A DNA stretch of 64,000 nucleotides from the human T2T-CHM13v2.0 reference genome, Homo sapiens: the NCBI RefSeq assembly GCF_009914755.1, contig NC_060930.1. The stretch is one strand, 5' to 3'. The position numbers and the translations under genes are program-made. The notes beneath the pieces were generated by a model. It was not told the origin of the DNA, made no database searches, and saw only the letters and a program-made list of their open reading frames with translations. Positions 12,101-60,115 of this stretch are shown here, piece by piece (positions within the stretch are counted from its first letter, which is position 1; each line of letters starts with the position of its first letter).

Positions 12101-12970
12101 ATTGAAATTGTTACTGAAATTTTGAAAACTTTCTTCTAGTGTCACAATTTATTATGAGTGAAGTCATACAAATTTTCAGGAATATTGTCAAATTTTGGTA
12201 AATCTCTATTAAGTTGTTTTTTGATCTTTTCCTATAAGATTTTCCACAGTTTAGCTTCTGGATTCATACCTCTCAAATCTTGAATCTCCTCTATGCTCAC
12301 ATACTACCAGTACCAGCCACAGGACCTGCTCATGGCTGCATACATCCTATGTATGGGTCAGCACAGCACAGTGGATGGTAGGACTATTTCTGGAAGCCTT
12401 TTCTATACCAAGGCAGCTAGCTGTACATGGAGGTAGGTGCAAACCAGGTAAATAAATGCCATTAAATCCACAAAAAAAAAATCTCCCCATTCACTATCCC
12501 CTTATTAAATCTCAAAAATGTCCTATGCCACTGTACAGCTTTCAACCGAAGAGCAAGTATGATGGAGGGGAGGAAGTTGGAGAGTGAAACAAAAATCAAT
12601 CATATTATAACTATGAGAGTTAAAATATTTTATTGTTACAAATTTTCCAAAAACACATGAGCATGTTCAATCAGTATCTAGGCCCCAAAAGATTGAATTC
12701 TATTTGGGAATAAGCTACCAAAAAATATCGTCTGGAAAAAAAAATAGTGCACAATATATTTTTTGTTACACTGATCAAATTATATCTGCTTTTTAGCTAA
12801 TCCATTAATAATTAATGTATTGCACTAAGGTATTACATACCCGATGTGAGCCTTCATCCTATGGCATGGGAAGGAGGGGTTAGTCACAGAAATATCACCA
12901 GACACTGCCTTTGAAGAGCTACTGACCTGACAGAGGCATCAAAATCTATAAGCATTCATTTTCTCCTTTA

Positions 12971-50452: not shown

Positions 50453-52284
50453 TCAGCACTGCTTGTGGTAATTACAGGATCTGTGGATCACAAGGCTCAC
50501 AACTTGTATCACAAGTTCTACAAGAAAATTGGCTAACACATATTTGGCTCTGTTAATCATTTGCTGAGTTTATATCTTGTCCCACCAAATGTATTTTTTG
50601 AAATGCCATTACATGAAAAAGTTTCACTATTCCAATTATCTGTGTTTACCAACTTGTGGAGTAAGAGTGGCTGACTGAATATGTGCTTTTTAACTACACT
50701 ATTATATACATTGGCCAAGCTTTTTATATTAACCCTACCCATGAAGTATCACCAATATTTCCCCCAGTGTGAAATTGACATTTGTCAAAAGCCTTTTGCC
50801 ATATAAAAGTTTTTAGTTCTTATATATGAAATCTGTCCCTTTTTTTCGACATGAGTTCCCCAGCCTGCTTAGCTTTGCCCCTACCACCCAAGATTTTTAA
50901 GCTTTCTATATTTTCTTAGAATTTAAGATTTTAAAGTCTTTACTTTTTTAAATCATTTATTTGTAAAGGGACATATTTCTCAAGTGTGCTAGTTTTCCTT
51001 GATTTTAATGGATTAAAATGTGTCGTAGGTGAGCCATTTTCTTCCAAATGACGAAGAGTTTTTGTTCCTTTGAAAGTCTGGCCCAGGATTTTGTTTGTTT
51101 TTGTTTTTTTAAAGTTCTTATTTTACTTACAGAGTTAAGAAAGTTGAATAACTATACAACCAGTCTCTAAATAGAAGTTCTAATAAATCCTAAGATGTTG
51201 CAGGGCACTGAAAGAGGACAAAATTTGATCCCTAAAGCCCTCTCCAATCTCATACTCGGTGAAAATAACAAACAAAAGGCTTCAGTGTTAGTGGAAAACT
51301 GAGTTCTTAAAAAGCAGGTAAAGGTCCTGTTTGGTCCTTCTCCAGAGCTGAGGAGAAAGGGTTTTCAGATTATAAATAACAGAGGTGCCCTTGTATGGCA
51401 CAGAATTGCGATAAGACTTTACTTCTTAGGGGCTTAAATAATGAAGTCAGTAAAAGAGGACTGAAAACGAACATAAAGAAGAGCTTTAGCTTTGACGCAA
51501 AGAATTACATCAGTGCTTGACAAAACCGAGGATTCTTAATTTCTAAAAACGCTTTCTTTAAGCACTTCCTAACCTTTCATTATCTGAGACAACATATCAA
51601 GTGAGCAGCAGTACAAAGGATGCATGTGATTTCGAAATGCCACAATTGAGCCAACTGCAGTTGCACGCGTACGTAGTATAGAGAGGTGTGATCAAAAAAA
51701 GAATATAGGGAGCATAGGGCTTCGTCTGCATCAAAAGATACTCTCCCCATCTTCTATAGCCTTAAGTTTTGCGAAGGTAAGTTTCTCCCCGCTTGAAAGC
51801 GCCCCCAGGGACAAGAATTCATCTTGACCAAGCCTAAGGCCGTGGCATGCAAGGTGTTGAGTCACCGGGTACAGCGGTCTTGCGACATAAATATTATTTG
51901 ATGACGAAGGTACTCGGGGCCCAGGTGCCAAGGTAAACCACTGGCAAAGATGACCGTGGTTAAGGCAGTAGAAAGCAGGCTCGACACTGAGACGCGGTTC
52001 CAGCCCTAGAAGGATTGCATTTTACGATTCAGGCAAACTTCGAGTCTCCTCATGTGACATGTGTGCACTCCTGGACCGTTTTAATTATGAGAAACGTGGT
52101 TTGCAGCATGATTCCTTCCAGTCGATAAATCGGAATCTCTCTCGCTCCCACCCCTTCTTAACTTCAGGCTTCCTGCATCCCGGAGCACTCCCGGCAGCCC
52201 CTTCCCTCCCCCGCCCCGGGGATGCTCCGACTCGGCGCTTAGCCATTCATCAACCGGTTCACACCGGCGGCGGCCGCCGCGGAG

Positions 52285-52432
52285 TGACGTCCGGAGGGGG
52301 CGGGCCTCCGCCCCCGCCTGTCGGCTCCTGGCCCGCGGTTCCAGGCCGCGATTGGTGGCTGGAGGGTTGCACGTCGCGCCGGCTATAAAGGGGAGGGCTT
52401 GTGACGCAAGGGCGCCTCGGCGCGTGTATTGG
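52285..52432 (+). promoter_or_regulatory. PTP4A1: PTP4A1 core/proximal promoter with immediate-early architecture
   Basis: CRE-like TGACGTCC 52285, GC box GGGGCGGG near 52297, EGR1 consensus CGCCCCCGC 52309-52317, inverted CCAAT (ATTGG) at 52351 and 52428, TATAAA 52384-52389, TGACGCAA 52402. Confidence 0.88.
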
Positions 52433-52653
52433 CTCCTTCGGCTGCGGGCCGGCTCGGCTACGCGCTCTGCTCCGAGCCGCTCACTGCATGGTAGAGTCTG
52501 GTGCCCCCGCCGCCGCCTGCATCGCCGCCACCGCCGCTCCGCCACGACCACCGCCGCCTCCTGCCCTGCAGCCACCGCCACCGCCTGTGTCGCCGCCGCC
52601 TCGGGACCGGCTGTATGATTAGGCCACAATCTTCAATGAGTAAACATATTCCT
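52410..52653 (+). other. PTP4A1: PTP4A1 exon 1 (5' UTR, GC-rich); TSS position approximate
   Basis: Lies downstream of TATAAA (52384) in the CpG island and ends at donor CCT|GTGAGT (52653/52654). The start is inferred from the TATA position. An Inr-like CTCACT also occurs at 52480-52485. Confidence 0.85.
52488..52622 (+). CDS. Proline-rich upstream ORF (uORF1), 44 aa: MVESGAPAAACIAATAAPPRPPPPPALQPPPPPVSPPPRDRLYD*
   Basis: First ATG after the TATA box (tgcATGG). Its stop TAG (52620-52622) lies just past the uORF2 ATG. Translation is not demonstrable from sequence. Confidence 0.5.
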   Translation: MVESGAPAAACIAATAAPPRPPPPPALQPPPPPVSPPPRDRLYD

Positions 52654-55600
52654 GTGAGTAGCCGTCGCATCGTCGCCTCTCGGGCTGGGAATCCACGACC
52701 GGCCCCCCATCCCCGCTGTCGCCTTTGTTCGGAGCCCGGCGTCTCCTCCAGGTTGCCCCGGGTTGCGGTTCCGGTGGGTCCCGGGTGGGAGCGGGCGGGT
52801 TATGGCCCTGTGGCCGGCCGATTGCGGCCGGCTGTGCGGAGGCAGATGCCGGGCCCCTCGGGGCTGCGGGGTGGCGGTTGGCCGCCGGAGGCACCGGCTT
52901 TTGAGTCCCTCCCGAGCCCGGAGCGACGGGGGCGGCGCGGTCCGGCTTCTGCGGCGGCCGGGGGCAGTTTCGGCTTCCGCAGCGGGCCGGGTGGGTGGCA
53001 CAAAAGCCGCTTTGTGACCGCCGCCTCCGCCCTTGGCCCTTTGGTCTGGCGCGACCCGTCCGGGCATGGCAGGCTCCGCGGCGTCCCGGGGCCTCTTTGT
53101 TCGGCCGGAGGAGAGTGGCTGCACTGGGAGCGGGAGACGTGGCCCGGGGTGGGGCGAGGGCTGCGCGTGTCACTGCGGAGCCGGATACGGGGAGGGCGCG
53201 GCGGTGGCGGGTTCGCCTCCAGATCCGGGCGGGCGTGGGGTAGGCCGGACAGCCAGGCACGGGTGGTAACGATCTGGTTCCAGAGCTTCTCGGAGCTCCG
53301 GGGTGGGCGCGGGACAGCCACTGGGTGCAGCTACACTCTTGTGCTCGACGGCCGGGACCCGAGCCTCAGACAAAATGGCCTCGGCGCCCGCGCCTGACTG
53401 AAGGCGCGGCGCGAACCCGTGATTGCGGCGCGGAGAGGGGGCGCAGCGGGCGTGCTCGGGCGCACACAGCCGCGTGCGCGGGGCGGCGGCCCTCTGGGGC
53501 ATTCCGCGAGCTGCACCCCTGCCCGGGCCAGAGTGGGGTTCTGCTAGGTGAGAACTTCGGCCGTCCGCCCCGCCCTCCTCCCAGGCTCCACCTGGTAATT
53601 CGAGCTGTTCCGGATTTATCGCCCCACCTCGGGCTCGTGATAATGGGAACAAGTCTAGTCTTGTCCTTTCTCTGGGCCAGTCGTCGAGAAATGGCCTGGT
53701 TCGGAGCGTCTTGGAAACTGACAGGGCTACTGTTAGTTACACTGACGCGAAGGACTTCCCGTCCGGGCACCAGCATACATTTCCCCTGCCAATTTTGGAA
53801 GGGCCCTGGATGGCGCCTTTTAATCGGGGACTGTTTAGAACTATCCCTGAGCTCTGTGGTGTAATATGTTGTTGCCTCCTGTTGGTTTGTGGCAGCAGTA
53901 GCCAACCAGAGACGGAATTCTGAGGGTTTTTTATCTTCTGTCCGCGGAGCCCCCTACCAGTCCACGAGTATTAAGTTATTTACACTACGATTGGAACTGT
54001 TGACCTGCCCGACATCTAGATCCTGAGGCAGTGCTTCCTGTTACTCAGTCAGTTGAAAACTAGAAAACTAAATCATTCCCAAGAGTGAGCAGCATTTTAC
54101 ACATGCTTTCTTAGGTGCCCTAAGACCTAAATAGATGTGGAACAGACTATACAACGAATTGTTTGTGACAAAGGAGTTACACACATTAATTGGCTTGACT
54201 CTGCAGTATAATAATGATTTAAGCTTCTGCACAGAGATTACTCTTTCCTCCTCTCCCTTCTTGTATATGATTGTGATTATAATGCAACTGATAGGTGGGA
54301 GGGAAAAAAATCCCCATTATGGATAGTTTTTCCTGTGGGTAGGAGATTGGGAATGGAGGAGTGTCTTGGGCGGAACAGAAATCTATCGGTGGCCACCACT
54401 GCTTTAACAGACGAGTCCCCCCATCCACTAGGTGGCTCCACTCAGTAAAAATAACCATTTCAGGAAGGGAATTCTTAATATAGTTCTTTCTCTGCTTCCT
54501 GATGAAAGTGCTTACTTACATGAAGGGATATGGCCAGACTAGGTTGTAGCCGACAGGAGTTTTAGCTATTAAATATGGAAATAGTGGTGTGAAATACTGC
54601 CTCAAATTAGCTTTTAATTGAAAAAAAGGTAATACCTAGAAATTAGAATACTGTGATGAGTCATTATAAAGCTTTTAAAGATCATTGTATGTCATTGGGA
54701 AAGTGTCAGAATACACTTTTTATTCTACGGAGGTTGTATTTAGAATTTGGGGTGAAAGTATAATGAAATTATTTTCAGATTACTACAATCTGTATTCACT
54801 GTAACTGTGATGGCTTTGTAATTTAGACACTTAATTTTTTAACCCAGCTGACCAACTAGGTGAAGTAACCTCTGAGGGCTTGTTTGAACAAACTTGTGAT
54901 AATGAAAGTTACCTTTTTTATGGGACCTTTTGATAAATGATTGTTAATGCTAGTTGTATGTTTTACCAGAAAAGTAGACTGGGTTTTTGACTTGATGTTT
55001 TCTGCAGTAATCATCATAAGAATTATTCTTCAAAATTTAGCAAAGTTCTAGAAACTATAACTAGCATGGGACTATTTAAAGGTGTAAAATGGAAATGGGA
55101 GCAGATCGTTTGAATTTTAATTTTAAGACTTCAAATGCTTAAATTTAAGCATGGAAACTAATGGAACCTTTTGTTAAAACACTTTGGTAATGAGAGTACA
55201 CATGAAGTGCTTGAGGCAGTGACTATGAATTACTGCTCTTGTTAACCTGTTATTAATACTTTCCTTAGTGCCCTCTTTACTCCCGAGTACACAAGTACCT
55301 TATAAACTATTTGGAAGAAGACTGATTATTAACATCAGTGTCTTCCATGTACATATTTTAAAAATATGCTGTGACTATTGGTTTAATGTTTGATATTGGC
55401 ATAAAAATGGTTTAGTTCTTAAGGGGGAACTTAGAGAAAATATAAATACATTCATATTTGTTTATATTTATTGGTTACAGTAGTTACCTTGCTTTTGAGA
55501 CCTGCCACTTCCACCTTCAACATCCCTTTGTCCGCCTTCTCTGAGTTGGATTTCAGTTTTGAGTTGTATATGTGAAATTTTGGTTTTAAAATACAAAAGA

Positions 55601-56466
55601 ACATTATTAAAATTATGAATATTTTCTTTACAGTTATAAATGAGAGTTGTTTCCTTTTTAGATTCATAAGCATACATTCTTATGATATTTCACATAACAA
55701 GTTGATTTTCAGAGACTCATTTTCCTCGTCTTCAGTTTAATGGGAATGATAACAGATTGTTAAGGATAAAGTGAGATTCTAAATATAGGACTTAAATCAG
55801 TCTAAGAAAAGGATATAAAAGCATAAAGTTGGAAAAGAACTTAGATGTTTCAGTTTATGAGTTAAGTAAATTATGCAAGACTAATAACTTCAGAGTTATC
55901 TGGAGTTTGTATTAATGTGTAAAAATGTTTTTGTTAGTTGGAAAAATCAACATAAAGTGTATGTAATTACAATGTAAAGAAAACAACTATCGAAAGGGAT
56001 AATTATTAGAATCATATAATTATATATTATATATAGATAGTATATATACAGAGAATATAACTAGATAGAATATATATGAATATATATATGAATTTCACAA
56101 AAATGTAACAATGGGTTTGGTTTTTTTTTCTGAGGAATCTTGGTAATAGATCATGGATTTCAGTTTAATCTATCTGACTGCTTGTTTTATGCTGATTGAT
56201 TTAATCTGTACTCACCCCTTGAGTTTTGCAATTCAAGTAAAAGTCGATGAAGCGGCTCAGGCCCTGCTTTAGAAAAATAGTTGTGTACTTAAATAGTGTA
56301 AAACCCTAATGTATTTCTTTTGAATTGGAAAATAACTTATTCTCTCTTTCTGTCTTTTTCTTTTAAACAGCAATTCTGTGGTGTTCTTGGTCACACATTT
56401 ATGGAGTTTCTGAAGGGCAGTGGAGATTACTGCCAGGCACAGCACGACCTCTATGCAGACAAGTGA
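52615..56466 (+). CDS. Spliced upstream ORF (uORF2), 44 aa; join(52615..52653,56371..56466): MIRPQSSMSKHIPQFCGVLGHTFMEFLKGSGDYCQAQHDLYADK*
   Basis: 13 codons in exon 1 join in phase 0 to 31 codons plus TGA in exon 2. It corresponds, by recall, to the conserved Mg2+-sensitive uORF described for PRL-1/PRL-2 mRNAs. Confidence 0.88.
53647..53666. promoter_or_regulatory. p53 response element in intron 1
   Basis: GAACAAGTCT AGTCTTGTCC: two RRRCWWGYYY half-sites, zero spacer, 19/20 match. Confidence 0.75.
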
Positions 56467-56815
56467 ACTGTAGAAACTGATTACTGCTCCACCAAGAAGC
56501 CCCCATAAGAGTGGTTATCCTGGACACAGAAGTGTTGAATTGAAATCCACAGAGCATTTTACAAGAGTTCTGACCTGGATGGGGTAAACCTCAGTGCACT
56601 TCTTTTCTGTTGGCCTCAGTATTACTGGATTGAAGAATTGCTGCTTCTTGTTAGGAGGTTCATTTCACTTATCATTACTTACAACTTCATACTCAAAGCA
56701 CTGAGAATTTCAAGTGGAGTATATTGAAGTAGACTTCAGTTTCTTTGCATCATTTCTGTATTCAATTTTTTTAATTATTTCATAACCCTATTGAGTGTTT
56801 TTTAACTAAATTAAC

Positions 56816-60115
<3,300 letters not shown>

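What the first reader, a model, noticed from the sequence alone, without database searches (positions are those of the whole stretch)
52615..56466. Hidden 44-aa microprotein/uORF split across a 3.7-kb intron
This ORF is invisible in the ORF track. ATG 52615 gives MIRPQSSMSKHIP, which splices in phase 0 to QFCGVLGHTFMEFLKGSGDYCQAQHDLYADK*. It has three in-frame ATGs (52615, 52636, 56401), all with T at -3, so leaky and graded initiation is possible. It stops 349 nt before the strong main ATG. Known (recall): a conserved uORF in PRL-1/2 mRNAs stalls ribosomes in a Mg2+-dependent way, and PRLs regulate CNNM Mg2+ transporters, closing a feedback loop. The Cys/His/Asp-rich C-terminal half could be the nascent-chain sensor or a trans-acting peptide (inference).
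Basis: partly seen in the sequence, partly recalled or inferred. Interest (0 to 1): 0.7.

Follow-up and report, generated by a model that had tools for sequence, protein, structure and literature searches.

The report
Known magnesium-sensing uORF of PTP4A1
The spliced 44-codon upstream reading frame in the human PTP4A1 (PRL-1) leader is real, but it is already annotated and published as the conserved, magnesium-responsive brake on PRL-1/2 translation, so it is not a new discovery.

Summary
ATG 52615 opens 13 codons, followed by a GTGAGT donor. After a 3,717-nt intron and a phase-0 acceptor at 56371 come 31 codons and TGA 56464-56466. The in-frame ATGs 52615, 52636 and 56401 all have T at -3. 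The stop lies 349 nt before a strong main ATG at 56816.

It is not hidden. The hub's RefSeq table lists these exact coding parts as LOC128125822 (NM_001415059.2). Published work describes the element as a conserved-peptide uORF that is translated, represses PRL-1/2, depends on its peptide sequence and responds to Mg2+.

My own checks agree:
- 5 of 6 human PTP4A1 retrocopies carry the exon 1-exon 2 junction fused, and 5 of 6 have lost the frame.
- The paralogue on contig 1 (PTP4A2 by my naming) has the same layout: a start in exon 1, a phase-0 intron and 31 codons in exon 2.
- 56 database proteins keep the core.

I found no sign of an RNA element, an autonomous fold or a trans-acting role.

Verdict: real, functional, already known.

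The parts
52414..52653 (+). Exon 1 of NM_003463.5 / NM_001415059.2 (5' leader, inside a CpG island)
   Evidence: Hub annotation. GC is 0.68-0.74 across 52100-53699. The GTGAGT donor at 52654 is seen.
52615..52653 (+). uORF coding part 1: 13 codons, with start ATG 52615 (T at -3, A at +4)
   Evidence: The coordinates equal the LOC128125822 coding part in the hub table.
52636..52638 (+). Second in-frame ATG (codon 8). It has the same TCAATG context as the start of the paralogue's uORF and is probably the older start (inference)
   Evidence: One search gives the context. One search shows the paralogue start ...CTTCAATG... In one search, M is present at column 8 in 24 of the 29 rows aligned there. 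All five non-M rows (P0026, P0027, P0028, P0036, P0040) read differently from the consensus through columns 4-13.
52654..56370 (+). Intron 1, 3,717 nt, GT...AG, phase 0 relative to the uORF
   Evidence: It is removed in 5 of 6 retrocopies. The paralogue has an intron at the same codon position.
56371..56466 (+). uORF coding part 2: 31 codons plus TGA. It holds the conserved core (TFM..L, D-Y/F-CQAQH, Y/F-ADK-stop)
56401..56403 (+). Third in-frame ATG (codon 24), conserved. For most alternative first exons it is the only entry into the conserved frame
   Evidence: M is present in 54 of 56 rows at column 24. The ATG is also present in the paralogue. One search covers the alternative exons.
56467..56815 (+). 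349-nt spacer between the uORF stop and the main start. It holds one 2-codon ORF (ATG 56579)
56816..56920 (+). First coding part of PTP4A1 (PRL-1). Its ATG is in a strong context (A at -3, G at +4)
   Evidence: and the hub annotation.
52488..52622 (+). Out-of-frame upstream ORF of 44 codons (Pro/Ala-rich). Its TAG stop (52620-52622) overlaps codons 2-3 of the conserved uORF
   Evidence: I did not test whether the main transcription start lies upstream of it.

Best explanation
This is the published conserved-peptide upstream ORF of the PTP4A1 (PRL-1) mRNA, curated in RefSeq as LOC128125822. It acts in cis.

Likely mechanism:
1. Scanning 40S subunits meet three weak-context in-frame AUGs. A fraction of them initiate and translate the 44-, 37- or 21-codon version.
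2. All three versions end in the same conserved C-terminal stretch.
3. When Mg2+ is replete, that nascent stretch slows or arrests the ribosome at or near the TGA. The arrested ribosome blocks following scanners and limits reinitiation at the main AUG 349 nt downstream, so PRL-1 synthesis stays low.
4. When intracellular Mg2+ falls, the block is relieved by a route reported to need AMPK/mTORC2. PRL-1/2 rise, bind CNNMs and promote TRPM7-dependent Mg2+ uptake, which closes a feedback loop.

Shown here: the anatomy, the splice, the conserved layout in the paralogue and the conserved core.

Shown in print: translation of the leader, repression, dependence on the peptide sequence, and Mg2+ and eIF2-stress behaviour.

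Inferred: the exact pause site, which AUG matters, and whether the peptide senses anything directly.
For: Anatomy is exact, and the hub table gives identical coding parts for LOC128125822.

The splice is real. 5 of 6 PTP4A1-derived retrocopies in the same genome (L002, L003, L004, L006, L007) have exon 1 fused to exon 2 at exactly this junction.

Selection acts on the parent gene only. 5 of 6 retrocopies have stops or frameshifts in the frame, and their substitutions fall 28/28/28 on the three codon positions.

The paralogue on contig 1 (PTP4A2 by my naming) has:
- a start codon in exon 1, 8 codons and a GTGAGT donor;
- an intron of about 18 kb in phase 0;
- 31 codons and TGA in the exon that also holds the main ATG.
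Identity is 14 of 31 residues, clustered in TFM, D-Y/F-CQAQH and Y/F-ADK. dN/dS is 0.40-0.47 overall and 0.34 for the last 23 codons. This is the only frame open in both genes.

In the 1.84-billion-protein library, 56 proteins match the 31-residue part at E<=1e-3 and 37 at E<=1e-10. Columns 23-38 are 94-100% conserved except T/K28, G29 and S30. 29 of the 56 proteins end exactly at residue 44.

Literature (passages seen):
- PMC4383229: the PTP4A1 leader is translated, represses about sevenfold and resists eIF2 inhibition.
- PMC7530721: the PTP4A1 CPuORF served as positive control, and a frameshift raised reporter expression.
- PMC3914846: the peptide is conserved from human to fish.
- PMC11855589 and PMC10083557: Mg2+ sensitivity, loss of it on rearranging the coding sequence, AMPK/mTORC2, and the PRL/CNNM/TRPM7 loop.

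There is no RNA-family match and no unusual RNA folding in the conserved stretch.
Against: - The primary paper (Hardy et al. 2019, PNAS 116:2925) is not held. Its results reach me only through citing papers and my recall.
- The reporter work I could read used the PRL-2 leader, so Mg2+ control of the PRL-1 uORF specifically rests on what I could not read.
- The review words the stalling as 'likely'. I saw no toeprint or disome data.
- My paralogue test is weak on its own. The differences fall 10/10/12 on the three codon positions, so there is no clear third-position excess, and the conserved blocks are conserved as nucleotides too.
Residues just upstream of ATG 52615 are also conserved in them (the 'LGTGC' reading), which shows some nucleotide-level conservation outside the ORF.
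- Some transcripts may start inside the leader and bypass the uORF.
Confidence: 0.88

Rival explanations
1. The product is, in addition, a stable 44-residue microprotein that acts in trans, for example on PRL, CNNM or metal handling. The cis effect would then be only part of its role.
For: RefSeq lists it as a protein-coding gene of its own (hub table). The whole 31-residue part is strongly conserved, not only the last few codons. The conserved Cys34, His38 and Asp32 are shared with the paralogue.
Against: - No Pfam family and no solved relative.
- AlphaFold2 with 32 aligned sequences gives only a low-confidence single helix (mean pLDDT 61.9, pTM 0.27).
- No paper pairs PTP4A1 with 'microprotein' (0 papers), and the C-terminal tryptic stretch occurs in no main text (0 papers). 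Supplementary tables were not searched.
- A cis mechanism already explains the conservation.
Confidence: 0.08
2. The element is a generic uORF. Repression and stress resistance would come from start-codon leakiness, uORF length and reinitiation distance, with the peptide sequence irrelevant.
For: All three AUGs are weak (T at -3). The 349-nt spacer allows reinitiation. The leader confers resistance to eIF2 inhibition, as other uORF leaders do.
Against: A frameshift that keeps start, stop and length derepresses the reporter. Rearranging the coding sequence abolishes Mg2+ sensitivity (review text). The peptide core is conserved in the paralogue and in 56 library proteins. The two modes can coexist.
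Confidence: 0.03
3. The conserved stretch works as RNA, for example as a Mg2+-binding structure or an IRES-like hyperconserved leader, and the open frame is incidental.
For: The conserved blocks are also conserved as nucleotides, and the paralogue differences show no third-position excess. Conservation extends a few codons upstream of ATG 52615. The mouse leader was once reported as IRES-like (mentioned in the preprint read).
Against: - No Rfam match at E<=1 in 52300-57000.
- 56371-56480 folds no better than shuffles (z = +0.99; 170 of 200 shuffles fold at least as well).
- Only this frame is open in both paralogues. Within the conserved block the changes are synonymous (GAT/GAC, GCA/GCT twice) or Tyr/Phe.
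- Frameshift mutants derepress.
- The IRES-like activity was attributed to internal transcription starts.
Confidence: 0.01

Closest known systems
Mg2+-sensitive conserved uORF of the PRL-1/PRL-2 mRNAs (Hardy et al. 2019 PNAS, cited; paper itself not held)
   Same: It is this element: a conserved uORF in the PTP4A1 leader that is peptide-sequence dependent and derepressed when Mg2+ falls.
   Different: Nothing of substance. The details added here are the fused junction in retrocopies, the identical intron phase and 31-codon second part in the paralogue, and the shared TCAATG start context. They may or may not be in the paper, which I could not read.
RefSeq gene LOC128125822, transcript NM_001415059.2
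   Same: The coding parts are identical: 52615-52653 and 56371-56466 (hub table).
   Different: RefSeq calls it 'uncharacterized' and models it as a separate protein-coding gene. The literature treats it as a cis regulator.
uORF of the paralogue on contig 1 (PTP4A2/PRL-2; name by my inference from the downstream N-terminus)
   Same: Start in exon 1, phase-0 intron, 31 codons and TGA in the exon that carries the main ATG. It shares the motifs TFM, D-Y/F-CQAQH and Y/F-ADK-stop.
   Different: It has 8 codons in exon 1 rather than 13 and no equivalent of ATG 52615. Identity is 14 of 31 residues. Cys16 and His21 are not kept. The spacer to the main ATG is about 495 nt rather than 349 nt.
Other metabolite-responsive arrest-peptide uORFs: AMD1 (polyamines), the fungal arginine attenuator peptide, the Mg2+-sensitive uORFs of TRPM7, and the bacterial mgtA/mgtL leader (recalled)
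   Same: A short upstream ORF whose translation sets downstream initiation in response to a small molecule or ion. The C-terminal part of the peptide is the important part (general statement).
   Different: There is no sequence similarity. Here the response is reported to run through AMPK/mTORC2 rather than through binding of the ligand in the exit tunnel. The uORF is split by an intron.

Membership tests
RefSeq LOC128125822 / published PTP4A1 CPuORF (identity, not just resemblance) | Same start, splice junction and stop | tested here: met
   Searches give 52615-52653 plus 56371-56466, identical to the hub's RefSeq coding parts.
Conserved-peptide uORF (CPuORF) | The amino-acid sequence is conserved across distant taxa or paralogues, in the uORF frame | tested here: met
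   Paralogue: 14 of 31 residues identical in blocks, dN/dS 0.40-0.47, and the only frame open in both genes. 56 library proteins keep the core. Conservation from human to fish is reported in PMC3914846. Caveats: there is no third-position excess in the paralogue pair, and the library rows are unnamed and partly retrocopy-like.
Conserved-peptide uORF (CPuORF) | The uORF is translated in cells | not testable with these tools
   Ribosome profiling is reported in PMC4383229 (passages). I saw no footprint data myself.
Sequence-dependent regulatory (arrest-peptide) uORF | Changing the peptide but not the start, stop or length relieves repression | not testable with these tools
   Reported for PTP4A1 in PMC7530721 and summarised in PMC11855589. 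The supplement with the constructs could not be read.
Sequence-dependent regulatory (arrest-peptide) uORF | A ribosome pause is demonstrated directly at a defined codon | not tested
   The review says only that the uORF is 'likely' responsible for stalling. I saw no toeprint or disome data.
Mg2+-sensitive PRL uORF | Translation of the main ORF rises on Mg2+ depletion and this needs the uORF | not testable with these tools
   Passages. The reporter I could read about used the PRL-2 leader.
Stand-alone functional microprotein | Autonomous fold, known domain, or detected stable product | tested here: not met
   No Pfam family and no PDB relative. AF2 mean pLDDT is 61.9 and pTM 0.27. There were no main-text hits. 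Absence of these is weak evidence.

The most novel reading that the evidence does not exclude
The conserved internal AUG (56401, codon 24) may be a functional start as well as a residue, placed for ribosome queuing.

- Its P-site position lies exactly 60 nt, about two ribosome lengths, upstream of the last sense codon.
- The spacing has no indel in the paralogue or in any of the 56 library proteins.
- A ribosome arrested at the stop could therefore hold a queued scanning subunit over this weak AUG and raise its use. Repression would then reinforce itself when Mg2+ is high.
- This would also extend the control to transcripts whose alternative first exons lack an in-frame AUG (9 of the 11 listed exons).

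The peptide could in addition have a trans role.
Probability: 0.1. Interest if true: 0.5.

Novelty: already known. Interest (0 to 1): 0.15.

Why it matters
PRL-1/2 are oncogenic phosphatases that set cellular Mg2+ through CNNM and TRPM7. This uORF makes their synthesis follow Mg2+ and energy status, and its PRL-2 counterpart is already used as a live Mg2+ reporter. For the scan, the value is calibration: a reader without tools correctly rebuilt a spliced uORF and named its function. Open points of modest interest remain: which of the three AUGs is used, where the ribosome pauses, and whether transcripts that skip or shift the frame escape the control.

Tried and rejected
- Hardy et al. 2019 could not be opened by DOI or PMC id.
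I did not pad it. I used the representative-library search instead, which takes 30 residues or more.
- The supplement of PMC7530721 is too large to read, so I could not check its construct or its stated taxonomic range for PTP4A1.
- Pfam, PDB sequences, Rfam and the RNA fold z-score gave nothing.
- AF2 gave a low-confidence helix, which I treat as uninformative.
- Paper searches:
  - PTP4A1 with 'microprotein': 0 papers.
  - The C-terminal peptide stretch: 0 papers.
  - LOC128125822: 4 papers, seen in the search listing only and not opened.
  - A broad sORF term search listed no paper holding PTP4A1 among its top 20.
- Four papers that cite Hardy 2019 added only a reference or a one-line mention.
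- Rejected: direct Mg2+ binding by Cys/His, on chemistry and because the reported route runs through AMPK/mTORC2.
- Rejected: counting the 56 library hits as independent lineages, because some rows resemble retrocopies such as L004.
Full report
**Observation.**
- ATG 52615-52617 opens 13 codons that end at 52653, directly followed by GTGAGT.
- After a polypyrimidine tract and AAACAG ending at 56370, exon 2 continues in phase 0 for 31 codons to TGA 56464-56466.
- Splicing by coordinates in a script gives a 44-codon ORF with in-frame ATGs at 52615, 52636 and 56401, each with T at -3.
- The main PTP4A1 ATG at 56816 has A at -3 and G at +4 and lies 349 nt after the uORF stop. The leader is 685 nt.
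- The intron is 3,717 nt.

There are two corrections. The leader has three further out-of-frame ATGs, at 52488, 56453 and 56579. An unspliced ORF list does show ATG 52615, but as the start of a 260-codon read-through ORF into the GC-rich intron.

**It is not hidden.** The hub's RefSeq table lists LOC128125822 (NM_001415059.2) with coding parts 52615-52653 and 56371-56466, the same coordinates.

**Is the splice real?** I searched the window's own genome with the 31-residue part. The search found the locus itself, six PTP4A1-derived copies, and two copies of a paralogue.
- Five of the six PTP4A1-derived copies (L002, L003, L004, L006, L007) align across the exon 1-exon 2 boundary without the intron, so they are retrocopies of an mRNA spliced at exactly this junction.
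- The sixth (L005) starts at the first base of exon 2.
- Five of the six have lost the frame:
  - L003 has a stop at codon 5.
  - L006 has a stop at codon 5 and a 4-nt deletion.
  - L002 has a stop at codon 37 and has lost the stop codon.
  - L007 has three indels.
  - L005 has no exon 1 part and a 2-nt insertion.
- L004 keeps an open 43-codon frame by compensating indels, but has lost the Met at codons 8 and 24.
- Substitutions in the six copies fall 28, 28 and 28 on the three codon positions. This is the neutral pattern, so without selection the frame decays.

**The paralogue.** Locus L008 on contig 1 carries, in one exon, a 31-codon frame ending in TGA. About 495 nt downstream sits a main ORF whose N-terminus I recognise (recall) as PRL-2, so I call it PTP4A2.
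- A retrocopy of it on contig 17 (L009) shows the spliced leader.
- Searching with that leader found the true exon 1 about 18 kb upstream. It has an ATG in the context CTTCAATG, eight codons and a GTGAGT donor.
- Both paralogues therefore have a start in exon 1, a phase-0 intron and exactly 31 codons in exon 2.
- The 31 codons align without gaps. 61 of 93 nt and 14 of 31 residues are identical, clustered as TFM, L, D-Y/F-CQAQH and Y/F-ADK-stop.
- dN/dS is 0.47 (NG86) or 0.40 (LWL85), and 0.34 for the last 23 codons.
- The other two frames carry stops in one or both genes.
- Against this, the differences fall 10, 10 and 12 on the three codon positions, so the pair alone shows no third-position excess.
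- Within the conserved block the changes are three synonymous ones and two Tyr/Phe replacements.
- The 120 nt after the stop align only with many gaps (70 identities in 143 columns).

**Wider conservation.** A full HMMER pass over 1.84 billion representative proteins found 56 matches at E<=1e-3 and 37 at E<=1e-10, with 67-100% identity to the 31-residue part.
- Aligned to the 44-residue peptide, F23 is invariant (56 of 56).
- M24, H21, F26, G31, C34, Q35, Q37 and H38 are each kept in 54 of 56 rows, and A36 in 55 of 56.
- 29 of the 56 proteins end exactly at residue 44.
- Many rows read the intron's 3' end before the conserved part and differ completely there. This shows that conservation starts at the exon boundary.

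Caveats:
- The library has no names.
- Some rows resemble retrocopies such as L004.
- Several rows are also conserved for about five residues upstream of ATG 52615.
- In some rows reading continues past residue 44 with W, which I cannot explain.

**What is published.** I saw passages, not whole papers.
- PMC4383229: the PTP4A1 mRNA is among the ten most eIF2-resistant. It has an extensively translated leader, and the leader lowers reporter output about sevenfold.
- PMC7530721: the PTP4A1 CPuORF was used as the known sequence-dependent positive control, and a frameshift raised expression.
- PMC11855589 and PMC10083557:
  - Mg2+ depletion raises PRL-1/2 translation without a change in mRNA.
  - The uORF is 'likely' responsible for stalling at normal Mg2+.
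  - Rearranging the coding sequence abolishes the response.
  - AMPK/mTORC2 are needed.
  - PRL-1/2 then act on CNNM/TRPM7.
  - The PRL-2 leader serves as a Mg2+ reporter.
- The primary paper, Hardy et al. 2019, is not held.

**Mechanism.** The best-supported reading is a cis-acting arrest-type uORF. Weak AUGs let some ribosomes in. All entry points share the conserved C-terminal 21 residues. That stretch slows the ribosome near the stop at normal Mg2+ and blocks or diverts following scanners. Low Mg2+ relieves the block.

Direct Mg2+ sensing by the Cys/His residues is unlikely, because the reported route runs through AMPK/mTORC2 and because Mg2+ favours oxygen ligands (general chemistry, my knowledge).

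An RNA-level element is unlikely. There is no Rfam match, the stretch folds no better than shuffles (z = +0.99), and published frameshift mutants derepress.

A trans-acting microprotein is not excluded but has no support: no Pfam family, no PDB relative, a low-confidence AF2 helix and no main-text reports.

- ATG 52636 shares the TCAATG context with the paralogue's start. The most divergent full-length library row (P0039) keeps it but lacks the first Met, so ATG 52636 may be the older start.
- ATG 56401 is conserved in both paralogues. It is the only way into the conserved frame for 9 of the 11 listed first exons if each is spliced directly to 56371, which I assumed rather than checked.
- Its P-site lies 60 nt upstream of the last sense codon, which would suit ribosome queuing. 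This is speculation.

**Verdict.** The feature is real, functional and well described. Novelty: already known.

Noticed in passing
window 52488-52622 (+): A second 44-codon ORF (Pro/Ala-rich, out of frame) starts at ATG 52488. It ends at TAG 52620-52622, inside codons 2-3 of the conserved uORF. Ribosomes terminating there would be 14 nt upstream of ATG 52636. I do not know whether the main transcription start lies upstream of it.
   Followed up: partly
window 52639/52640 (alternative donor GTAAAC) with 56371-56480: The annotated alternative exon 52414-52639 shifts the frame. ATG 52615 and ATG 52636 then read a different 44- or 37-residue peptide ending at 56480, and the conserved frame is reachable only from ATG 56401. 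Of the 11 listed first exons, only 52414-52653 and 12239-12432 feed an ATG into the conserved frame. This assumes direct splicing to 56371.
   Followed up: partly
window 56368-56373; loci L002-L007: Four of the six retrocopies have CAG where the parent has CAA as the first codon of exon 2. The older acceptor was therefore probably a tandem CAGCAG (NAGNAG) site. Retrocopy L004 lacks exactly these 3 nt, and 7 of the 56 library proteins lack the matching Gln14.
   Followed up: partly
L004 (G000:C11:86372665-86375754): This old retrocopy (about 80% alike) still has an open 43-codon frame through compensating indels. It shares derived residues (Ala22, Pro30, Glu42, no Gln14) with a group of library proteins (P0041-P0046, P0050-P0052). 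It may be an ancient retrocopy lineage present in several species.
   Followed up: no
window 52458-53776, both strands: The CpG island (GC 0.68-0.74) carries seven ORFs of 67-260 codons on both strands. These include those behind the predicted antisense gene LOC124901228 ('IF-2-like') and a 260-codon read-through from ATG 52615. They look like chance ORFs of GC-rich DNA. I did not test them further.
   Followed up: no
library proteins P0019, P0022, P0030-P0034, P0036, P0037, P0041-P0043, P0050, P0052: In these rows the residue after position 44 is W and reading continues into what is 3' of the stop in human. Near-identical rows (P0023-P0025, P0028) end at 44. Either TGA was read as Trp by a gene caller or the stop is TGG in some genomes. 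This is unexplained.
   Followed up: no
window 56423: A published reporter cloned the 'PTP4A1 5' UTR' of Ensembl transcript ENST00000626021 with a forward primer that starts at 56423, inside the uORF and after its last in-frame ATG. A preprint states that about one-third of mouse Ptp4a1 transcripts start within the leader. Such transcripts would escape the uORF.
   Followed up: no
L012 (G000:C11:134165532-134168625): A further copy of the PTP4A2 leader (88% identity over 95 nt). My simple motif search did not find the uORF core in it.
   Followed up: no
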